Shown in pieces: positions 15,408 to 49,891 of a DNA stretch of 64,000 nt. Below the pieces are notes generated by a model. The model was not told where the DNA came from and ran no database searches. It worked only from the letters and a program-made list of their open reading frames with translations. The position numbers and the translations under genes were made by a program. The DNA lies in the NCBI GenBank assembly GCA_965247095.1, contig OZ251997.1:608001-672000 (forward strand). Reading direction: 5' to 3'. The DNA is from Candidatus Multivorans sp. (GTDB lineage: Bacteria > Acidobacteriota > Thermoanaerobaculia > Multivoradales > Multivoraceae). Each line of letters starts with the position of its first letter. The first letter of the stretch is position 1.

Positions 15408-16823
15408 CTACATGTGGATGGGCCGGCCGTGCACCGCCAGGGCGGCTTCCTTCACCGCTTCGGCGAGCGTCGGGTGGGCGTGGCTGGTGCGGAAGAGGTC
15501 CTCGGCGGAGGCGCCGAAGGTGATCGCCGCCACCGCCTCGGCGATGAGATCGCCGGCGTGGCTGCCCAGGATGTGGACGCCCAAGACCTCGTCCGTCTCG
15601 GCGCCGGCCAGGATCTTGACGAACCCCTCCAGGCTGCCGGTGGCGCGCGCGCGTCCGATGGCGCGGAAGGGGAACGTGCCCTTCCGGTAGGCGATGCCGG
15701 TCGCTTGGAGCTGCTCCTCCGTCTTGCCCACGGACGCGACCTCGGGTTCGGTGTAGACGATCCCGGGGATCGCGCCGTAGTCGATGTGGACGTAGCCGCC
15801 GGCGATGCCCTCGACGCAGGCCATCCCCTCCTCCTCGGCCTTGTGGGCCAGTTGGGGTGCGCCGATCACGTCGCCGATCGCGAAGACGCCGGGCGTGGAA
15901 GTGGCGAAGCGCTCGTTCACCTGGATGAAGCCGAGGTCGTCAACCGACACGCCGGCCTCCTCGAGGCCCAGGCCGTCGCTGATCGGTTCGCGGCCGACCG
16001 CGACCAGGACGCGCTCGCACTCGATGGGGCCTTTGCCGTCGACGTCGACGACGCAGTGATCGCCGTCCTTGCCGGTCTGGACCGAGGCGCCCAGGACCCG
16101 GCTGCCGAGCCGGATGTCGAGACCCTGGCGGCGGGAGATCTTCTCGGCCGCGGAGGCGACCTCCGCGTCGGCCCCGGGCAGGATGCGGTCGAGGTACTCG
16201 AGCACGATGACCTGCGAGCCGAGCCGGTTCCACACCGCGCCGAGTTCCAGCCCGATGTACCCGGCGCCGATCACGACCAGGCGCTCGGGCACGTGGTCGT
16301 ACGCCAGCGCCTCCGTGCTGGTTCCGATCCGGTCGCCGTCGAGTTCGATCCCGGGCAGGCTGGCGGGGCGGGAACCCGTGGCGACGATCACGTTCTTGGC
16401 CTGGATCGTCCGTTCGCCGTCCGCGGTCGCCACCTCGACGCTCCGCATCTCGCCGTCCGGGACGCCGAGTTTCGCCCGACCCTGGATGTGCTCGATCTTG
16501 TTCTTCTTGAGCAGCGAGGAGACGCCGCGGGTCAGGGTGGTGACGACGCGGTCCTTGCGCTTCATCATCGTCGCAAGGTCGAGCCCGATTTCGCCCGCCA
16601 CGCCGCCGTGCACCGCGAGTTCGCTGCGCGCCGCAAGCAGCCGCTGGCTCGACTCGAGCAGCGCCTTGCTCGGAATGCAACCCACCCGCAGGCAGACGCC
16701 CCCGGCCGCCGGGTGCTCGTCGACCACGGCGGTGCTGAAGCCGAGCTGCGCCGCGCGGATCGCGGCCACGTAGCCGCCCGGTCCGGCGCCGATGACGGCT
16801 ATATCGAAGACGTTCGGGGTCAT
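15408..16823 (-). CDS. lpdA: Dihydrolipoamide dehydrogenase (E3)
   Basis: GAGPGG, GGVCLRVGCIPSK, HAHPTLAE. Confidence 0.96.
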   Translation of the reverse strand: MTPNVFDIAVIGAGPGGYVAAIRAAQLGFSTAVVDEHPAAGGVCLRVGCIPSKALLESSQRLLAARSELAVHGGVAGEIGLDLATMMKRKDRVVTTLTRGVSSLLKKNKIEHIQGRAKLGVPDGEMRSVEVATADGERTIQAKNVIVATGSRPASLPGIELDGDRIGTSTEALAYDHVPERLVVIGAGYIGLELGAVWNRLGSQVIVLEYLDRILPGADAEVASAAEKISRRQGLDIRLGSRVLGASVQTGKDGDHCVVDVDGKGPIECERVLVAVGREPISDGLGLEEAGVSVDDLGFIQVNERFATSTPGVFAIGDVIGAPQLAHKAEEEGMACVEGIAGGYVHIDYGAIPGIVYTEPEVASVGKTEEQLQATGIAYRKGTFPFRAIGRARATGSLEGFVKILAGAETDEVLGVHILGSHAGDLIAEAVAAITFGASAEDLFRTSHAHPTLAEAVKEAALAVHGRPIHM

Positions 16824-16827
16824 CCCG

Positions 16828-18255
16828 CTACACCTCGATCAGCATCCTCGCCGGATCCTGGATCGCTTCCTTGATCCGGACCAGGAAGGTCACCGCCTCC
16901 CGGCCGTCGACGATGCGGTGATCGTAAGTCAGAGCGACGTACATCATGGGCCGCACGACGATCTCTTTGTCCTCGACCACGGGGCGGTCCTGGATCGCGT
17001 GCAGGCCGAGGACGCCGCTCTGCGGCGGGTTGATGATCGGCGTTGACAGCAGGGAACCGAAGATGCCGCCGTTGGTGATCGTGAAGGTGCCGCCCTGGAG
17101 TTCGTCGATCCGGATGCGCCCGGTGCGCGCTCGCCCCGCGAAGTCGGCGATCTGGGACTCGATCTCGGCGAAGGACAAGCGCTCCGCGCTGCGCAGGACC
17201 GGCACCATCAGGCCGCGGTCGGTGCTGACGGCGATGCCGATGTCGTAGTAGTTCCGGTAGATGATGTCCGTGCCCGAGATCTCGGCGTTGAGACGCGGGC
17301 AGCGGCGCAAGGCGTCGACCGCCGCCTTGACGAAGAAGGAGAGGAAGCCGAGCCGTACGTCGTGGCGCTTCTCGAAAGCGTCGCGGTACTGGCGCCGGAA
17401 GTTCATCACGGCGGCCATGTCGATCTCGTTGAAGGTCGTCAGCAGCGCGGCCTGCTGCTGGGACTCGACCAGCCGTTCGGCGATCCGGCGGCGGATCGGC
17501 GTCATCGTCACCCGTTCCTCGGCGCGGCCGCCGGCTGGGGCGGGCGGGGCAGGGGGCGCCGGTGGCGGTTGGGCGGGCGCCGCGGGAGGCGCCGGAGCGG
17601 CCTGGGGCGCCGGCGCGGGAGCGACGGGGACCGGATCGGCGGCCGGGCTCGGCTCGTCAGGCGCTGGCTCTTGCGCCTCGCGCGAGGCGAGGTAGGCGAT
17701 CACGTCGCTCTTCAGCAGCCGGCCGCCCTTGCCCGTCGCGGGAACGATGGCGGCGTCGAGGTCGTGCTCGGCGATCAGGCGCTGCGCTGCGGGCAGGATG
17801 CGGAGTGGTTCTTCGGTTGGCGGGGCGGCCGGAGGCTCGGATGCGGGCGAGACGCCCGGGTGCCATCCCGTGCGCCCGTCCTCGGGCGCACGGGATGGTT
17901 CGCGGGTGGCGCCGATCGCGCCACCCGGGTTCCCAGGGGCGGAGCCGGATGCGGCCTGGATCCCTGCGAGCAGATCCGTCTGTGCGCCTGCGCCGGCTGC
18001 CGCCACAGTGGCGGTCGCGCCTTCCTCGATGCGGGCGATCACGCCGCCCACCGGAACGGTCTCGCCTTCCGCGCACACGATCTCGGAGAGGACACCGGCC
18101 ACCGGCGAGGGCATCTCGACGGTGACCTTGTCCGTCTCGAGTTCGACGAGTGGCTCGTCGCGGCCGACGGCATCGCCGGCCTGCTTGATCCAGCGCAGGA
18201 TGAGCGCCTCGGTGATCGATTCGCCGATCTCGGGAATCGTGACTTCGTATGTCAT
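16828..18255 (-). CDS. sucB: 2-oxoglutarate dehydrogenase E2 (succinyltransferase)
   Basis: Lipoyl motif ETDKV, E3-binding TGKGGRLLKSD and catalytic YDHRIVDG; lies between sucA and lpdA. Confidence 0.95.
   Translation of the reverse strand: MTYEVTIPEIGESITEALILRWIKQAGDAVGRDEPLVELETDKVTVEMPSPVAGVLSEIVCAEGETVPVGGVIARIEEGATATVAAAGAGAQTDLLAGIQAASGSAPGNPGGAIGATREPSRAPEDGRTGWHPGVSPASEPPAAPPTEEPLRILPAAQRLIAEHDLDAAIVPATGKGGRLLKSDVIAYLASREAQEPAPDEPSPAADPVPVAPAPAPQAAPAPPAAPAQPPPAPPAPPAPAGGRAEERVTMTPIRRRIAERLVESQQQAALLTTFNEIDMAAVMNFRRQYRDAFEKRHDVRLGFLSFFVKAAVDALRRCPRLNAEISGTDIIYRNYYDIGIAVSTDRGLMVPVLRSAERLSFAEIESQIADFAGRARTGRIRIDELQGGTFTITNGGIFGSLLSTPIINPPQSGVLGLHAIQDRPVVEDKEIVVRPMMYVALTYDHRIVDGREAVTFLVRIKEAIQDPARMLIEV
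17836..17967 (-). repeat. Intragenic repeat mosaic in sucB: degenerate family A (17945-17967), family B (17860-17933) and family A (17836-17858)
   Basis: Matches to 726-772 (19/23), to 47714-47787 and 49754-49826, and to 2247-2269 (23/23). Confidence 0.85.
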
Positions 18256-18277: not shown

Positions 18278-21184
<2,907 letters not shown>

Positions 21185-46199: not shown

Positions 46200-47390
46200 A
46201 TGGACGGCGCTAGGATGGTCAGGGGACCGATGGAGGGGTTGACCGCTGTGACGACGGGGGACATCGAACCGCGGGTTGGGCGCCGCCGGCTGAATCGTCC
46301 GGCGGTGGCGGCTGTCCTGGCTGCGCTCGCTCTGGGATGCGCTTCGACCGCTGCGCGAGAAGCCGGCGAGAGTGCTCTTCAGAGAGAACTGGAGCGGCGT
46401 GGCGTCAGCCGTGTCGTGGTGCCGTTCGCGCTGAACGAGGAGATGGCGGCGTGGGCTCACGGCTCGGTCGCTGAGACGCTGCGAGAGGAGCGCCTCGACC
46501 GCCTGGTCGAAGTCGTGATGGACACCTCCCTGCTCGGCGTGGAGTACGAGGCCGGGCGCACGAGCTCGGCGGTCGAGGTGTTCGAGAACCGGACGGCGAA
46601 CTGCCTGGCCTTCACCCAGATGTTCGTGGGGCTCGCGCGGGAGTTGGAGCTGCCGGCGTACTTCGTCGAAGTGACCCACGTCGAGAGCTTCGAGCGCTCC
46701 GGGGACCTGATCGTCATATCGGACCATGTCGCCGTGGGGTTCGGACCGCGGCACATGATGCGAGTGATCGACTTCGGGCGCCGTCAGGAAGAGGACGCTT
46801 GGCGGGTGAATCCGATCAGTGACCTGACGGCCACGGCGCTCTTCTACTCGAACCGCGGCGCCGAGGCGCTCCGTGCGGAGCGGCTCGACGAAGCCGTGGC
46901 CTGGCTCGAAGACGCGGTCCGCATCGATTCCGAACTCGCCTCGGCCTGGGTCAACCTGGGCGTGGCTCAGCGGCGGAGTGGCCGCGCCGGCGCGGCCGAG
47001 GGGAGCTACCGGCGGGCGCTCGAGATCGATCCGCGCGCCAGTTCCGCGCTCGCCAACCTCGCGGTGCTGTTGCGGATGAACGGGCGCACCGCCGAGGCCG
47101 AGGAGTTGCTCCGGTTGACGGCGACGACACACAACCGCAACCCGTTCACGTACATCGCCCTGGGCGACCTGAGCCTGCGTTACGGCCGCCTGGACGAGGC
47201 GGAGCGCTTCTACAGCAGGGCGCGGCGGCTCGGGCCCGACGAGGCGGCGTCTGCGGCCGCGCTGGGCGAGGTGCTGCTGCGCCGGGGCGAGCGGCGGGCG
47301 GCCGAGAAGCTACTCCGCCGCGCGCAGCGGCTGCAGCCCGACGGCGGCCGGCGGATTGATCGTCTGGCCCGCCTGCTGGCGGGCGCCTGA
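46200..47390 (+). CDS. Lipoprotein with a transglutaminase-like domain and TPR repeats
   Basis: Lipobox ALALGC; ANCLAFT..GLARE, DHVAV and VIDF (Cys/His/Asp); AWVNLG, ALANLA and YIALG TPRs. Start uncertain. Confidence 0.75.
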   Translation: MDGARMVRGPMEGLTAVTTGDIEPRVGRRRLNRPAVAAVLAALALGCASTAAREAGESALQRELERRGVSRVVVPFALNEEMAAWAHGSVAETLREERLDRLVEVVMDTSLLGVEYEAGRTSSAVEVFENRTANCLAFTQMFVGLARELELPAYFVEVTHVESFERSGDLIVISDHVAVGFGPRHMMRVIDFGRRQEEDAWRVNPISDLTATALFYSNRGAEALRAERLDEAVAWLEDAVRIDSELASAWVNLGVAQRRSGRAGAAEGSYRRALEIDPRASSALANLAVLLRMNGRTAEAEELLRLTATTHNRNPFTYIALGDLSLRYGRLDEAERFYSRARRLGPDEAASAAALGEVLLRRGERRAAEKLLRRAQRLQPDGGRRIDRLARLLAGA

Positions 47391-47406
47391 GCGGCTGGCG
47401 GGCAGT

Positions 47407-49737
47407 TTGTCACCGGATTCCGACGTGCCGTGCCTCTGGCAGCTCTGGATCGACACCGGCGGTACGTTCACGGACTGCATAGCGCTCGACCCGGCCGGCG
47501 CCGTTCAGTGCATCAAGGTCCTGAGTTCCGGATCGGTGCGGGCGACGGTCGTTTCGGACGGCGCGGACGACCTGCGCCTGGAGACACCGTTCGATCTCCC
47601 GGACGGCTTCTTCGAGGGCTACGCACTGACCCCGCTTGCCGGCGGTACTCCGGTGCGCGTGGAGGAGTGGTCGGCTGACGGTTCCTGCCGGCTGGCGGAC
47701 GGTGCCGGCAGCGGGAACCCGGGTGGCGCGAACCCGCGCCACCCGCGAACCAGTCCGAGCGCTCGTCATCGAGCGCTCGGATGGAACGGGAGCGGTTTCG
47801 GGCGCGGTCTGGTCGTGGAACTCGTCTCGCCCGAGAACGCGCCCATCCTCGCGGCACGGATCGCCACCGGCAGGACGCTCCACGAGCCGTTGCCGGCCTG
47901 CGATCTCCGGCTCGCGACGACTCGGGGAACGAACGCCCTGCTCGAGCGGGCCGGCTCGCGGACGGTGCTGTTCGTCACCGAAGGGTTCGCCGATCTGCTC
48001 CTGATCGGAGACCAGGCGCGGCCGGACATCTTCGCGCTCAACATCGAGCGTCCGGCGCCTCTGTACGAACGCGCGGTCGAGGTCGGCGGCCGCCTTGACG
48101 CGGAGGGACGCGAGCTGTTGCCGCTCGACGAGAACGGGTTGCGGACGGCCGCGCGGGCACTGGTCGGCGAGGGCTTCCGGGCCGCGGCCGTGGCTCTGAT
48201 GCACAGTTACCGGAATCCGGCACACGAGGAGCGCGCCGAGCGCATCCTTAGCTGTGCCGGCTTCGAGACGGTTTCGTGTTCGGCCGAACTGGCGCCCCTG
48301 ATCAAGATCGTGCCGCGGGCGCACACGGCGGTGGTCGACGCCTACCTGGGCCGCGCCGTCGGCGGCTATCTTGAGACCACGGGCGCAGCGCTCGGGGGCG
48401 GACCGGCGGCGGAGGAGGGCCGCCTCGCGCCGCGAGTGATGACCAGCGCCGGCGGCCTGGCGAGCTTCGCCAGCTACCGGCCCAAGGACAGCCTGCTTTC
48501 GGGCCCGGCCGGCGGTGTCGTGGGAGCGGCGGCGGCGGGCCGCGCGAGCGGCATGGAGCGGATCATCGGCTTCGACATGGGCGGCACGAGCACCGATGTC
48601 TCCCGCTACGACGGCGACTTCGAGTACAACTTCGAGTTCCGCGTCGGCGACGCGACCGTGGTGGCGCCGGCGCTGGCGATCGAGACCGTGGCCGCGGGCG
48701 GCGGCTCGATCTGCGGTGTCGATCACGGCCAGCTCAAGGTCGGGCCCGAGAGCGCCGGAGCGCGGCCGGGGCCGGCCTGCTACGGCGCCGGCGGGCCGCT
48801 GACCATCACGGATGTGAACCTGTTGCTCGGCCGGATCGACCCGGCGGCCTTCGGCCTGCCCATCGATAGCGCCGCTGCCGAGCGCCGGTCGGCGGAGGTG
48901 CTGGGCGGCCTGACCGGCTCGGAGGAGCAGTTGCTGGGGGGCTTCCTGCAGGTCGCCAACGAGCGCATGGCGGACGCCATTCGGCGCATCTCCATTTCGC
49001 GCGGGTACGACCCGGCGGACTACGCCCTGGTCAGTTTCGGCGGCGCGGGAGGCCAGCACGCCTGCGCCATTGCGTCCGAGCTGGGAATGCGCACGGTGAT
49101 CGTGCCGGTCGATACGTCGCTCTTGAGCGCGGTCGGTCTGGGGCACGCGGTGCTGGAGCGTTTCGCGCACCGGCAGGTGCTGGCGCCTCTGGACGGCGTT
49201 GCGGTCGGACCGCTGGTCGAGGAGCTCGAGCAGGAGGCGTTGGCGGCGCTGGTGAGCGAACGCGGGGCGAACCTGGAAGGCGCCGCGGTGCGTCGGCGGA
49301 TCGTTCGGCTGCGGTTGCAGGGACAGGAAACGGCGCTGGAAGTCGAGCCGGCCTCGGCGGCGGAGGCGTGCTCGACCGGGGCCGTCGCGGCGCTCTTTGC
49401 CGACCGCTACCGGGCGGTCTACGGCTATCCGCCGCCCGAGCACCCGGTCGAGGTCGAGTCGATCCGGGTCCTGGCCTCGACCGCTCCGGCGGCTGGGCGA
49501 CTTGAGCGTGTCCCGGAGGAGCGAGCGGTGGAAGCGGGGACCAGGAACCGCCGGGCCTGGTTCGACGGCTGGAGGACGGCCGAGATCCTGTGGCGCGATA
49601 GCCTCGCTTCCGGTTTCGAGCGCGCCGGCCCCTGCCTGGTGCAGGAGCGCCACAGCATCACGGTGGTCGAGCCGGGCTGGAACCTGCGCGTCGACGACGC
49701 GCACGCTCTGGTTCTGAGCTGGTCCGCGGGCGTGTAG
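47407..49737 (+). CDS. Hydantoinase A/5-oxoprolinase ATP-binding half
   Basis: IDTGGTFTD, TTRGTNALLER, SGPAGG, DMGGTSTD, AAGGGS, FGGAGGQHA; no hydantoinase B domain. Confidence 0.88.
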   Translation: MSPDSDVPCLWQLWIDTGGTFTDCIALDPAGAVQCIKVLSSGSVRATVVSDGADDLRLETPFDLPDGFFEGYALTPLAGGTPVRVEEWSADGSCRLADGAGSGNPGGANPRHPRTSPSARHRALGWNGSGFGRGLVVELVSPENAPILAARIATGRTLHEPLPACDLRLATTRGTNALLERAGSRTVLFVTEGFADLLLIGDQARPDIFALNIERPAPLYERAVEVGGRLDAEGRELLPLDENGLRTAARALVGEGFRAAAVALMHSYRNPAHEERAERILSCAGFETVSCSAELAPLIKIVPRAHTAVVDAYLGRAVGGYLETTGAALGGGPAAEEGRLAPRVMTSAGGLASFASYRPKDSLLSGPAGGVVGAAAAGRASGMERIIGFDMGGTSTDVSRYDGDFEYNFEFRVGDATVVAPALAIETVAAGGGSICGVDHGQLKVGPESAGARPGPACYGAGGPLTITDVNLLLGRIDPAAFGLPIDSAAAERRSAEVLGGLTGSEEQLLGGFLQVANERMADAIRRISISRGYDPADYALVSFGGAGGQHACAIASELGMRTVIVPVDTSLLSAVGLGHAVLERFAHRQVLAPLDGVAVGPLVEELEQEALAALVSERGANLEGAAVRRRIVRLRLQGQETALEVEPASAAEACSTGAVAALFADRYRAVYGYPPPEHPVEVESIRVLASTAPAAGRLERVPEERAVEAGTRNRRAWFDGWRTAEILWRDSLASGFERAGPCLVQERHSITVVEPGWNLRVDDAHALVLSWSAGV
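47714..47787 (+). repeat. Family B double-hairpin repeat, in-frame inside the oxoprolinase gene
   Basis: GGAACC-CGGGTGGCGCG.aacc.CGCGCCACCCG-CGAACCAG-TCCGAGCGCTCG.tcat.CGAGCGCTCGGA-TGGAAC. Confidence 0.85.
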
Positions 49738-49753
49738 CCGGCTACGCCGCTTC

Positions 49754-49826
49754 GGAACCCAGGTGGGGCGGTCGGCGCCACCTGCGAACCACTCCGTACG
49801 CGAGTCATCGAGCGCACGGATGGAAC
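49754..49826 (+). repeat. Family B double-hairpin repeat, intergenic copy
   Basis: GGAACCCAGGTGG..CCACCTGCGAACCACTCCGT..ACGGATGGAAC; colinear with 47714-47787. Confidence 0.85.
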
Positions 49827-49891
49827 TTCCGGAGCGGGAGGACGTATCTGGATTGGCATAGAGTTGCCACTTTCCGCCCTTTTTGTCGCCC

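What the first reader, a model, noticed from the sequence alone, without database searches (positions are those of the whole stretch)
17836..17967. The SucB interdomain linker is built from a mosaic of palindromic repeats
Seen: about 44 codons between the lipoyl and E3-binding domains (..AGIQAASGSAPGNPGGAIGATREPSRAPEDGRTGWHPGVSPASE..) consist of a degenerate family A copy, a full family B double hairpin and a 23/23 exact family A copy, all in frame in a core TCA-cycle enzyme. Known: Rickettsia palindromic elements insert in frame into housekeeping proteins, and BIMEs are REP mosaics. Inference: this is an apparently undescribed repeat system that creates new protein sequence. The TGGCAC end of B occupies the place of the GGAAC leader of A, which suggests the two families share a mobilisation mechanism.
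Basis: partly seen in the sequence, partly recalled or inferred. Interest (0 to 1): 0.8.

Follow-up and report, generated by a model that had tools for sequence, protein, structure and literature searches.

The report
Repeat element inserted in SucB linker
A 108-base copy of a hairpin-rich genomic repeat sits in frame in the flexible linker of a core TCA-cycle enzyme, adding 36 amino acids that close relatives lack; this kind of event is already known from other bacteria.

Summary
sucB (window 16828-18255, minus strand) carries a 108-nt, 36-codon insertion (residues 104-139, window about 17838-17945). It lies between the lipoyl and E3-binding domains.

The insertion is one copy of a roughly 100-nt three-hairpin composite repeat, of which the genome holds 75 full-length copies. 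The composite is itself nested. It consists of a 39-nt short REP-like unit plus a 69-nt two-hairpin cassette.

None of 20 relatives' SucB orthologs has the long form. Two have only the 39-nt part at the same site. One further database SucB does share the long form.

The genome has a single REP-associated tyrosine transposase (RAYT). Inverted arrays of the same repeats flank it, and the same is true of its two orthologs in relatives.

Nine further genes with Pfam domains, among them gyrA, ychF and lhr, carry in-frame copies. All ten lie in one orientation. The cassette has the 3n-length variant in 10 of 11 intragenic units, against 31 of 138 elsewhere.

This is a new sequence family of a known kind. 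In-frame intragenic REPs are published for Rickettsia RPEs and by Di Nocera 2013. Mobilisation by the RAYT, expression of the peptide and neutrality are inferred, not shown.

The parts
16828..18255 (-). sucB, dihydrolipoyllysine-residue succinyltransferase (E2o), 475 aa; it lies between sucA (18278-21184, minus) and lpd (15408-16823, minus)
   Evidence: ORF list. Pfam: Biotin_lipoyl 4-76, E3_binding 155-185, 2-oxoacid_dh 245-472. NCBIfam sucB equivalogs score above cut-off.
17838..17945 (.). 108-nt insertion relative to the empty-site orthologs; one copy of the composite repeat. It encodes residues 104-139, whose codons occupy 17839-17946.
   Evidence: DNA alignment with G016 shows one 108-nt gap. 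Multi-species alignment. Coordinates. The codon-usage score of the insert is negative in all three frames (-0.16 per codon in the real frame), against +0.47 for the whole gene.
17843..17859 (+). H1: the short REP-like hairpin (6-7 bp stem, 3-nt loop), the core of the 39-nt short unit
   Evidence: The core 12-mer occurs 134 times in the genome. An H1 regex finds 210 copies. A compensatory G-C/A-T stem variant splits 31 versus 18 among 50 distinct copies.
17864..17932 (+). 69-nt H2-H3 cassette. It is absent from the G048 ortholog, which keeps only the 39-nt unit.
   Evidence: 69-nt gap in G048. nhmmer with a 72-position cassette model gives 216 hits, 149 of them full length. The same cassette (68 nt) is the only difference between the 92-nt and 160-nt MITE copies.
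17863..17898 (+). H2: 16-bp perfect hairpin with a 4-nt loop
   Evidence: Inverted repeat I1; folds. This copy has one extra base in the left arm compared with 57 of the 59 aligned copies.
17903..17927 (+). H3: 10-bp perfect hairpin with a 5-nt loop, followed by the GGTTCCCAGG tail (17928-17937)
   Evidence: Inverted repeat I6; folds. A compensatory variant splits G-C 31 versus T-A 14.
17946..17954 (+). CGGATGCGG: ancestral sucB sequence identical to the first 9 nt of the insert (17838-17846)
   Evidence: Present once in the empty-site orthologs G016 and G038; coordinates.

Best explanation
The SucB linker contains one copy of a non-autonomous, hairpin-rich REP-type repeat.

What is shown:
- A 39-nt short-hairpin unit and a 69-nt two-hairpin cassette, 108 nt together, interrupt sucB in frame. 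They lie between the lipoyl domain and the E3-binding domain.
- Relatives have an empty site, or only the 39-nt part.
- The same modules occur hundreds of times in the genome, mostly outside genes.
- The genome's single RAYT-type HUH tyrosine transposase is flanked by inverted arrays of these modules.

What is inferred:
- The RAYT, or a lost relative of it, moves the modules as single-stranded hairpin DNA. The cassette lands beside a short GTKC(C) motif such as the tail of the short unit.
- Copies that land in genes survive only if they keep the reading frame, lack stop codons and fall in tolerant segments.
- The Ala/Pro-rich swinging-arm linker of E2 is such a segment, so the enzyme most likely still works and carries 36 extra, probably disordered, residues.
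- The insert is most likely a tolerated selfish insertion rather than an adaptation.
For: Family membership. 59 near-full copies at 84-91% identity and 75 full-length nhmmer hits of 168.

Indel matches the repeat boundaries. There is a single 108-nt gap in G016. The long form is in 0 of 20 relatives' orthologs. A 39-nt remnant is present in 2 of 20, G048 and G036.

Nested structure. The 92-nt and 160-nt MITE paralogs differ by exactly the 68-nt cassette, beside GTTCC.

RAYT.
- There is one Y1_Tnp hit in the genome, scoring 33.7 bits in Pfam against a cut-off of 23.
- NCBIfam REP_Tyr_transpos gives E 1.9e-22.
- The only PDB match is E. coli TnpArep 4ER8, with the HUH and Y-x-x-NPV stretches aligned.
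- The gene is flanked on both sides by oppositely oriented repeat clusters.
- The same flanking holds for its orthologs in G016 and G051, 3 of 3. None of the 9 loci holding the roughly 50%-identity paralogs has H1 copies.

Selection on frame.
- 10 of 11 intragenic cassette units are the +1 (3n) length variant, against 31 of 138 elsewhere (Fisher p 9e-6).
- Counted per gene, it is 8 of 9 (p 1e-4).
- The SucB copy reaches 3n through an extra base in H2, whereas most other genic copies do so through an extra base in the H3 loop.

Other hosts. Nine more genes with Pfam domains carry in-frame copies. The GyrA insert is absent in 4 of 5 relatives. The YchF insert is absent in 2 of 5 and partly deleted in 2 of 5.

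The insert does not look selected for coding: its codon score is negative in every frame.
Against: - The RAYT scores 79.8 bits against the NCBIfam cut-off of 80, just below.
- An ortholog of this RAYT was not found (E <= 1e-10) in G036, G038 or G048, which are rich in the element. G039 and G047 have only about 50%-identity paralogs.
- No transposition, cleavage or binding was tested.
- The left junction of the 39-nt unit shows a 9-nt identity between the target and the element start. This fits homology-guided copying at least as well as transposase targeting.
- Only a weak orientation bias relative to replication was seen (87 versus 62, p 0.049).
- Expression of the inserted peptide is not shown. 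The one RNA library laid carries a relative's allele with a different linker, not this one.
- Function of the enzyme with the insert is inferred only from the intact frame and conserved domains.
- The structure model was too poor to say anything about disorder (mean pLDDT 41.6).
Confidence: 0.8

Rival explanations
1. The modules spread without the RAYT. Possible routes are homology- or microhomology-guided copying (template switching, gene conversion or recombination with other copies), or a DDE transposase acting on the TIR-bearing MITE forms. On this view the RAYT association is incidental.
For: - 9 nt are identical between the ancestral sucB site and the start of the insert.
- Several element-rich relatives lack a detectable ortholog of this RAYT.
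- About 16 composite copies and at least 12 short copies sit inside MITEs with 12-22-bp terminal inverted repeats and CTAG flanks.
- Indels in the GyrA and YchF copies show slippage-type changes.
Against: - The SucB copy has no terminal inverted repeats or CTAG flanks.
- No full-length IS with these TIRs was seen. In 205 TIR-like matches, the regular spacings were 73 and 141 nt only. I did not search for a DDE transposase gene.
- The cognate flanking of the RAYT by these repeats holds in 3 of 3 orthologs and in 0 of 9 paralog loci.
Confidence: 0.25
2. The insert has been co-opted. The longer, charged linker, or the -75 kcal/mol hairpin cluster in the sucA-sucB-lpd mRNA, tunes E2o swinging-arm reach, complex stoichiometry, mRNA decay or translation pausing, and is kept by selection.
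For: - The long form is also present in a second, diverged SucB, P0002, with 89% identity over the insert.
- Derivatives of the insert in G048 and G036 are still in frame.
- The mRNA-strand fold is very stable.
Against: - 18 of 20 relatives do without it, and linker length varies freely in the genus.
- Codon usage is non-coding-like.
- The same elements decorate unrelated proteins in all three reading frames, so no common peptide is conserved.
- Frame retention is expected under purifying selection on sucB alone.
Confidence: 0.1
3. Artefact or chance. Either the palindromes are a by-product of GC-rich Ala/Gly/Pro coding, or the insert is an assembly error at a repeat.
For: The linker is low-complexity and GC-rich. 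Short-read contigs break inside the repeat.
Against: - 0 of 200 dinucleotide shuffles fold as well.
- Hits to dozens of unlinked copies reach E 2e-30.
- Exact contigs of run X1 tile 17773-18037. One bridges the right junction with 32 and 92 letters on either side. The left junction has 65 and 30 letters, one short of the tool's 31-letter rule, and X1 may be the source sample.
- Orthologous remnants exist in G048 and G036, and an independent database SucB has the long form.
Confidence: 0.02

Closest known systems
Intragenic REPs of the GTAG/CGTC survey (Di Nocera et al. 2013, PMC3733652; passages read)
   Same: These are short palindromic high-copy repeats, mostly extragenic, with a minority lying entirely inside ORFs of known proteins. 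The inserts are often dimers or groups encoding 20-30 aa, up to 43-82 aa. They are inferred to be tolerated in modular proteins, and tyrosine transposase genes are flanked by the repeats ('REPtrons').
   Different: Neither GTAG nor CGTC stands at the hairpin foot here; the conserved flank is GTTCC (GGAAC on the other strand). The insert is a nested composite of two unit types. That paper stresses DNA replication and repair genes; here the hosts include SucB, GyrA, YchF, Lhr, a peptidase and others. I could not read its Additional file 3, the list of host ORFs.
Rickettsia palindromic elements (RPE) (as summarised in PMC10969869 and PMC3733652; passages read)
   Same: Palindromic repeats inserted in frame into unrelated housekeeping genes, adding peptide segments while the proteins apparently stay functional.
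   Different: RPE-1 is about 150 bp and is described as encoding a conserved peptide. Here the units are 39 and 68/69 nt, are read in all three frames, and lie in a 4.6-Mb, 68% GC genome, not a reduced intracellular one. No sequence relationship to RPEs was tested.
REPIN-RAYT systems (Bertels and Rainey 2011, PMC3116915; search listing and abstract only)
   Same: A single-copy RAYT with a large population of cognate short palindromic repeats, and the RAYT gene flanked by them.
   Different: REPINs are two REPs in inverted orientation forming one long hairpin. Here the short unit and H3 share the same orientation, and the cassette holds two different hairpins.
BIMEs of E. coli (recalled, from no call)
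   Same: Mosaic clusters built from several REP types joined by short conserved linkers.
   Different: As I recall, BIMEs alternate REP orientation and are extragenic. Here the modules are co-oriented and this copy is in a coding sequence. No IHF or gyrase site was examined.
Nested or composite bacterial MITEs (review PMC10969869; passages read)
   Same: The 92-nt and 160-nt forms have terminal inverted repeats and CTAG flanks, and one small element sits inside another.
   Different: The SucB copy itself has no TIRs or CTAG flanks.

Membership tests
REP / RAYT (REPtron) system | Short GC-rich imperfect palindromes in high copy number | tested here: met
   210 H1 cores, 149 full H2-H3 cassettes and 75 full composites. 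98.5% of stem cells are paired, and 4 of 22 pairs show two-sided changes.
REP / RAYT (REPtron) system | Predominantly extragenic location | tested here: inconclusive
   Only 12 of 168 composite-model hits had both flanks coding-like in one open frame, plus SucB, which the filter missed. However, genes were called with a home-made codon score, not an annotation. In the flank test on the 138 full cassette hits that are not the confirmed genic ones, 50 were 'unclear'.
REP / RAYT (REPtron) system | Single-copy Y1 HUH transposase of the RAYT type | tested here: met
   One Y1_Tnp match in the genome, with Pfam above cut-off. NCBIfam REP_Tyr_transpos scores 79.8 against a cut-off of 80, marginally below. 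The best and only PDB match is TnpArep 4ER8, with the HUH and Y motifs aligned.
REP / RAYT (REPtron) system | RAYT gene flanked by its cognate repeats in inverted orientation | tested here: met
   true for G000, G016 and G051 (3 of 3 orthologs). H1 is absent from 9 of 9 paralog loci.
REP / RAYT (REPtron) system | Conserved GTAG (or CGTC) tetranucleotide at the hairpin foot | tested here: not met
   The consensus of 59 copies shows GTTCC/GGAAC beside H1 and H3. No GTAG or CGTC stands at the stem foot.
REP / RAYT (REPtron) system | RAYT binds and cleaves the repeat | not testable with these tools
   Needs biochemistry.
REPIN | Two REPs in inverted orientation forming one long hairpin that is the replicating unit | tested here: not met
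   H1 and H3 are co-oriented, and H2 and H3 are different palindromes.
Rickettsia palindromic elements | In-frame insertion of a palindromic repeat in ORFs of functional proteins | tested here: met
   SucB plus nine other Pfam-supported genes. This is a resemblance in behaviour only.
Rickettsia palindromic elements | Sequence membership in an RPE family and occurrence in Rickettsia | not tested
   No RPE sequences were compared. Rfam gave only two sub-threshold chance matches.
MITE (TIR plus target duplication) | Terminal inverted repeats and flanking target duplication | tested here: not met
   The SucB copy lacks the TIRs and CTAG flanks that the 92-nt and 160-nt forms have.
SucB (E2o) | Lipoyl domain, E3-binding domain, catalytic acyltransferase domain and an equivalog-level score | tested here: met
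   PRK05704 scores 560 bits against a cut-off of 449; TIGR01347 scores 512.8 against 378.65.

The most novel reading that the evidence does not exclude
This lineage may have an RPE-like 'protein-decorating' repeat system driven by a RAYT. A 39-nt REP unit and a 68/69-nt two-hairpin cassette repeatedly land in housekeeping genes.
- Only the 3n-length variants, in one orientation, survive there.
- They supply 13-36-residue Gly/Pro/Ala/Arg-rich loops to at least ten proteins.
- These loops then evolve by in-frame indels.

The natural filled and empty site pairs (sucB, gyrA, ychF, 92- versus 160-nt MITEs) would then record the still unobserved insertion chemistry of REP-type elements at single-nucleotide resolution. 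That chemistry would be insertion beside GTKC(C) without a long target duplication.
Probability: 0.3. Interest if true: 0.6.

Novelty: new member of a known kind. Interest (0 to 1): 0.42.

Why it matters
- It shows that REP-type selfish repeats, usually treated as extragenic, add peptide segments to core enzymes in a large, GC-rich genome. This had been documented mainly in Rickettsia and in the few genomes surveyed in 2013.
- The length filter (68 versus 69 nt) is a clean signature of purifying selection on reading frame acting on a mobile-element population.
- The filled and empty sites in orthologs and paralogs give precise junctions. These could guide biochemical tests of how RAYTs move their repeats.
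- For annotation, such inserts inflate linker lengths and can be mistaken for lineage-specific protein features.

Tried and rejected
- Rfam scan of 17700-18100 gave two sub-threshold chance hits only.
- The AlphaFold2 model of SucB from 19 close orthologs was too poor to judge disorder of the insert. Mean pLDDT was 41.6, and even the lipoyl domain scored about 35.
- I looked for a larger IS around the copies with shared flanks. The shared block is only about 160 nt, a MITE.
- Replication-strand bias of the cassette is weak: 87 versus 62, p 0.049, using skew switches near 1.1 and 2.5 Mb. My first replichore assignment was wrong and is discarded.
- Orientation of intergenic cassettes between co-directional genes is 30 opposite versus 20 same, p 0.20.
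- Three of the 12 intragenic candidates were dropped. 447282 lies at residues 3-36 of a stop-to-stop frame whose first domain starts near residue 896. 3485621 and 4528985 lie in frames with no Pfam hit. Two of the three (447282, 3485621) have the opposite element orientation to the ten kept. If they were real genes, the orientation count would be 10 of 12, or 11 of 13 with the third.
- RNA evidence: the one metatranscriptome laid (X15) holds only small pieces and a relative's allele that joins 17802 to 18008 with 133 other letters. This says nothing about expression of this insert.
- The search for related loci with the RAYT returned only distant relatives, at most 66% identity, in many phyla. 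Records near the window's genome are left out there, so it did not help place the system.
- The peptide search for residues 100-142 found only 3 proteins, including the window's own. The word index limits its reach.
Full report
**What is in the sequence**

The minus-strand ORF at window 16828-18255 is sucB. It lies between sucA (18278-21184) and lpd (15408-16823). Pfam places the lipoyl domain at residues 4-76, the E3-binding domain at 155-185 and the catalytic domain at 245-472. NCBIfam sucB equivalogs score above their cut-offs.

**Is it repeat-derived and beyond chance?**

- 12-mers from 17838-17859 occur 101-136 times in the 4.617-Mb, 67.7% GC, single-contig genome. Those from 17896-17935 occur about 13-100 times. 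12-mers from the sucB sequence on either side mostly occur 1-20 times.
- blastn of 17836-17945 against the genome gave 236 HSPs. Of these, 59 cover nearly the whole query at 84-91% identity.
- The stretch folds into three hairpins. As single-stranded DNA it gives -50 kcal/mol, z -7.1, with 0 of 200 shuffles as stable. As the mRNA strand it gives -74.7 kcal/mol, z -6.2, with 0 of 200.
- Rfam has nothing for it.

**Anatomy of the family**

The 59 copies align over about 100 nt in a fixed order:
- H1, a short hairpin with a 6-7 bp stem;
- H2, a 12-16 bp hairpin;
- H3, a 10-bp hairpin;
- a GGTTCCCAGG tail.

Stems show compensatory variants. One H1 pair is G-C in 31 and A-T in 18 of 50 distinct copies. 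One H3 pair is G-C in 31 and T-A in 14.

A profile search finds 168 hits, 75 of them full length. The composite is modular.
- H1 followed directly by the tail (the short form) is the commonest state: 112 copies read GTTCCCAGG after H1, against 62 with a long-form junction.
- The H2-H3 pair also stands alone with unrelated flanks (74 aligned copies). In total it has 216 profile hits, 149 of them full.
- About 16 composites, and at least 12 short forms, sit inside MITEs with terminal inverted repeats and CTAG flanks. The 92-nt and 160-nt MITE forms differ by exactly the 68-nt H2-H3 cassette, inserted between the H1 stem and its GTTCC tail.

**The ortholog test**

SucB was found in all 31 genomes of the first draw and in all five further close relatives.
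- None of the 20 relatives whose whole linker I aligned has the long insert.
- Against G016, whose flanks are near-identical, the DNA alignment has one gap of 108 nt, or 36 codons.
- G016 and G038 show the empty site.
- G048 has a 39-nt in-frame insert at the same site: H1, tail and spacer. G000 differs from it by a further 69 nt, which is precisely the H2-H3 cassette.
- G036 has an H1 short form in a diverged linker.
- The insert's first 9 nt (CGGATGCGG, 17838-17846) are repeated at 17946-17954. They are present once in the empty sites, so the boundaries are ambiguous by 9 nt.
- A database SucB from another lineage (P0002) has the long form, with 89% identity over the insert.

The inserted residues are 104-139. 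Their codon usage is non-coding-like: -0.16 per codon in the real frame, against +0.47 for the whole gene.

Positions 17946-17967 are ancestral.

**Reality of the assembly**

Exact short-read contigs of run X1 tile 17773-18037.
- One bridges the right junction, with 32 and 92 letters on either side.
- The left junction has 65 and 30 letters, one short of the tool's 31-letter rule.
- X1 may be the source sample, so this is not independent support.
- Runs X4, X8 and the RNA run X15 show a relative's allele that replaces 17803-18007 with 133 other letters. This says nothing about expression of this allele.

**The likely mobiliser**

The genome has one Y1-transposase match, a 214-aa protein.
- It scores 33.7 bits for Pfam Y1_Tnp, against a cut-off of 23.
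- It scores 79.8 bits for NCBIfam REP-associated tyrosine transposase. This is just under the cut-off of 80, at E 1.9e-22.
- Its only PDB match is E. coli TnpArep 4ER8, with the HUH and tyrosine stretches aligned.
- The gene is flanked on both sides by clusters of the same modules in opposite orientation.
- Its orthologs in G016 (99% identity) and G051 (76%) are flanked in the same way. None of the nine loci holding the roughly 50%-identity paralogs in other species has H1 copies.

Against a simple story, no ortholog of this RAYT was found in G036, G038 or G048, although these are rich in the element. Activity is untested.

**Other genes**

A codon-score screen of the 168 hits flagged 12 with both flanks coding-like in one open frame. 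SucB itself was missed, because its Ala/Pro linker flank scores low.

Nine of the 12 lie in ORFs with Pfam domains:
- an Asp/Glu racemase (three tandem cassettes);
- an MmeI-like restriction-modification enzyme;
- hydantoinase A (in this window, 47713-47794);
- Lhr;
- an Amidase_3 protein;
- an NTP-transferase;
- a prolyl oligopeptidase;
- GyrA;
- YchF.

Three were dropped; see Tried and rejected.

Ortholog checks confirm that these are indels. The GyrA insert is absent in 4 of 5 relatives checked and present in G036. The YchF insert is absent in 2 of 5, partly deleted in frame in 2, and complete in G036. At the GyrA empty site (G047) a GGTTG stands where G000 has GGTTC on both sides of the insert. 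This fits insertion beside a short GTKC-like motif.

**Two regularities**

First, the ten kept genes all read the element on the same strand: 10 of 10. The chance expectation is 0.006 even allowing for the one stop-containing frame on the other strand. All three frames of that strand are used, so there is no common peptide.

Second, the cassette's modal measured length is 72. Given the 4 nt shared at the junctions, this corresponds to a 68-nt insert. Yet 10 of 11 intragenic units measure 73, a 69-nt insert of 3n length, against 31 of 138 elsewhere (Fisher p 9e-6). Per gene the count is 8 of 9 (p 1e-4). SucB reaches 69 nt through an extra base in the left arm of H2, matched in the right arm so that the stem is perfect. 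Most other genic copies have an extra base in the H3 loop. This is the expected footprint of selection against frameshifts in functional genes.

**Mechanism**

Shown: the insert is a family member, absent from orthologs, in frame, in a linker; and the family is tied to a RAYT locus.

Inferred:
- The modules move as hairpin DNA through the RAYT.
- The cassette targets GTKC(C).
- Genic copies are filtered by frame, stops and structural tolerance.
- The SucB protein works with a longer swinging arm, and the insert is neutral or slightly costly.

Which came first in sucB cannot be decided without a species tree. G048's junction reads GTGCCCAGG. That is rare among G000 short forms (2, against 112 with GTTCCCAGG) but typical of long-form left junctions (44 of 62). 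This favours a 69-nt in-frame deletion in G048 from a long-form ancestor. The presence of P0002 also argues that the long form is not recent.

**Comparison with what is known**

In-frame intragenic REPs in known proteins are described across several phyla, with RAYT genes flanked by their repeats (PMC3733652; abstract and passages read). Rickettsia RPEs are the classic case (PMC10969869, passages read; also cited in PMC3733652). REPIN-RAYT systems are known to me here from listings and abstracts only.

This family differs in three ways:
- its flank motif is neither GTAG nor CGTC;
- its units are co-oriented rather than REPIN-like doublets;
- it is nested in a short unit, a cassette and a MITE.

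Three motif strings from the family occur in none of the searchable papers. Supplementary file 3 of PMC3733652, which lists host ORFs, was not read.

**Verdict**

The system is a new sequence family of a known kind, and interest is moderate.

Noticed in passing
window 47713-47794 (gene 47173-49737, plus strand) and window 49751-49827: A second in-frame cassette copy lies in the N-terminal region of a hydantoinase/oxoprolinase A gene (Pfam Hydant_A_N and Hydantoinase_A). A further cassette lies just downstream of the same gene's stop codon.
   Followed up: partly
G000:C1, e.g. 563757-563841 (92-nt form) and 215023-215175 (160-nt form); a one-TIR match at window about 708: A MITE family with 12-22-bp terminal inverted repeats and CTAG on both sides carries the short hairpin unit. 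A subfamily of about 16 copies (93-98% identical) additionally carries the 68-nt cassette. No full-length parent IS was seen among 205 TIR-like matches.
   Followed up: partly
G000:C1 441581-442588 (L022): An Asp/Glu racemase gene holds three tandem cassette units in frame (period about 69 nt). They split the Pfam domain into two matched stretches.
   Followed up: partly
G000:C1 whole contig: GC skew changes sign near 1.1 Mb and 2.5 Mb, giving very unequal arms (about 1.4 and 3.2 Mb). This means either strongly asymmetric replichores or a large rearrangement or assembly issue.
   Followed up: no
L134 (G047) and L135 (G051), ychF: The ychF cassette insert is partly deleted in these relatives. 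G047 is 19 codons shorter than G000, so the remnant is still in frame. The repeat-derived segment is evolving by in-frame indels.
   Followed up: partly
P0003 (695 aa, Pfam PF01663 phosphodiesterase), from another genome: The protein ends in a composite-repeat-encoded tail (77% identical to the SucB insert peptide). This looks like a gene reading into a downstream repeat, giving a C-terminal extension.
   Followed up: no
L119-L127 (nine genus relatives): A second RAYT lineage (about 50% identity to the one in G000) is widespread in the genus. It is not flanked by the H1 repeat, and G000 itself lacks it.
   Followed up: partly
G000:C1 447273-453545 (L138): A composite copy lies at the extreme 5' end of the open frame of a UvrD/PD-(D/E)XK helicase-nuclease gene, probably just upstream of its true start.
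   Followed up: partly
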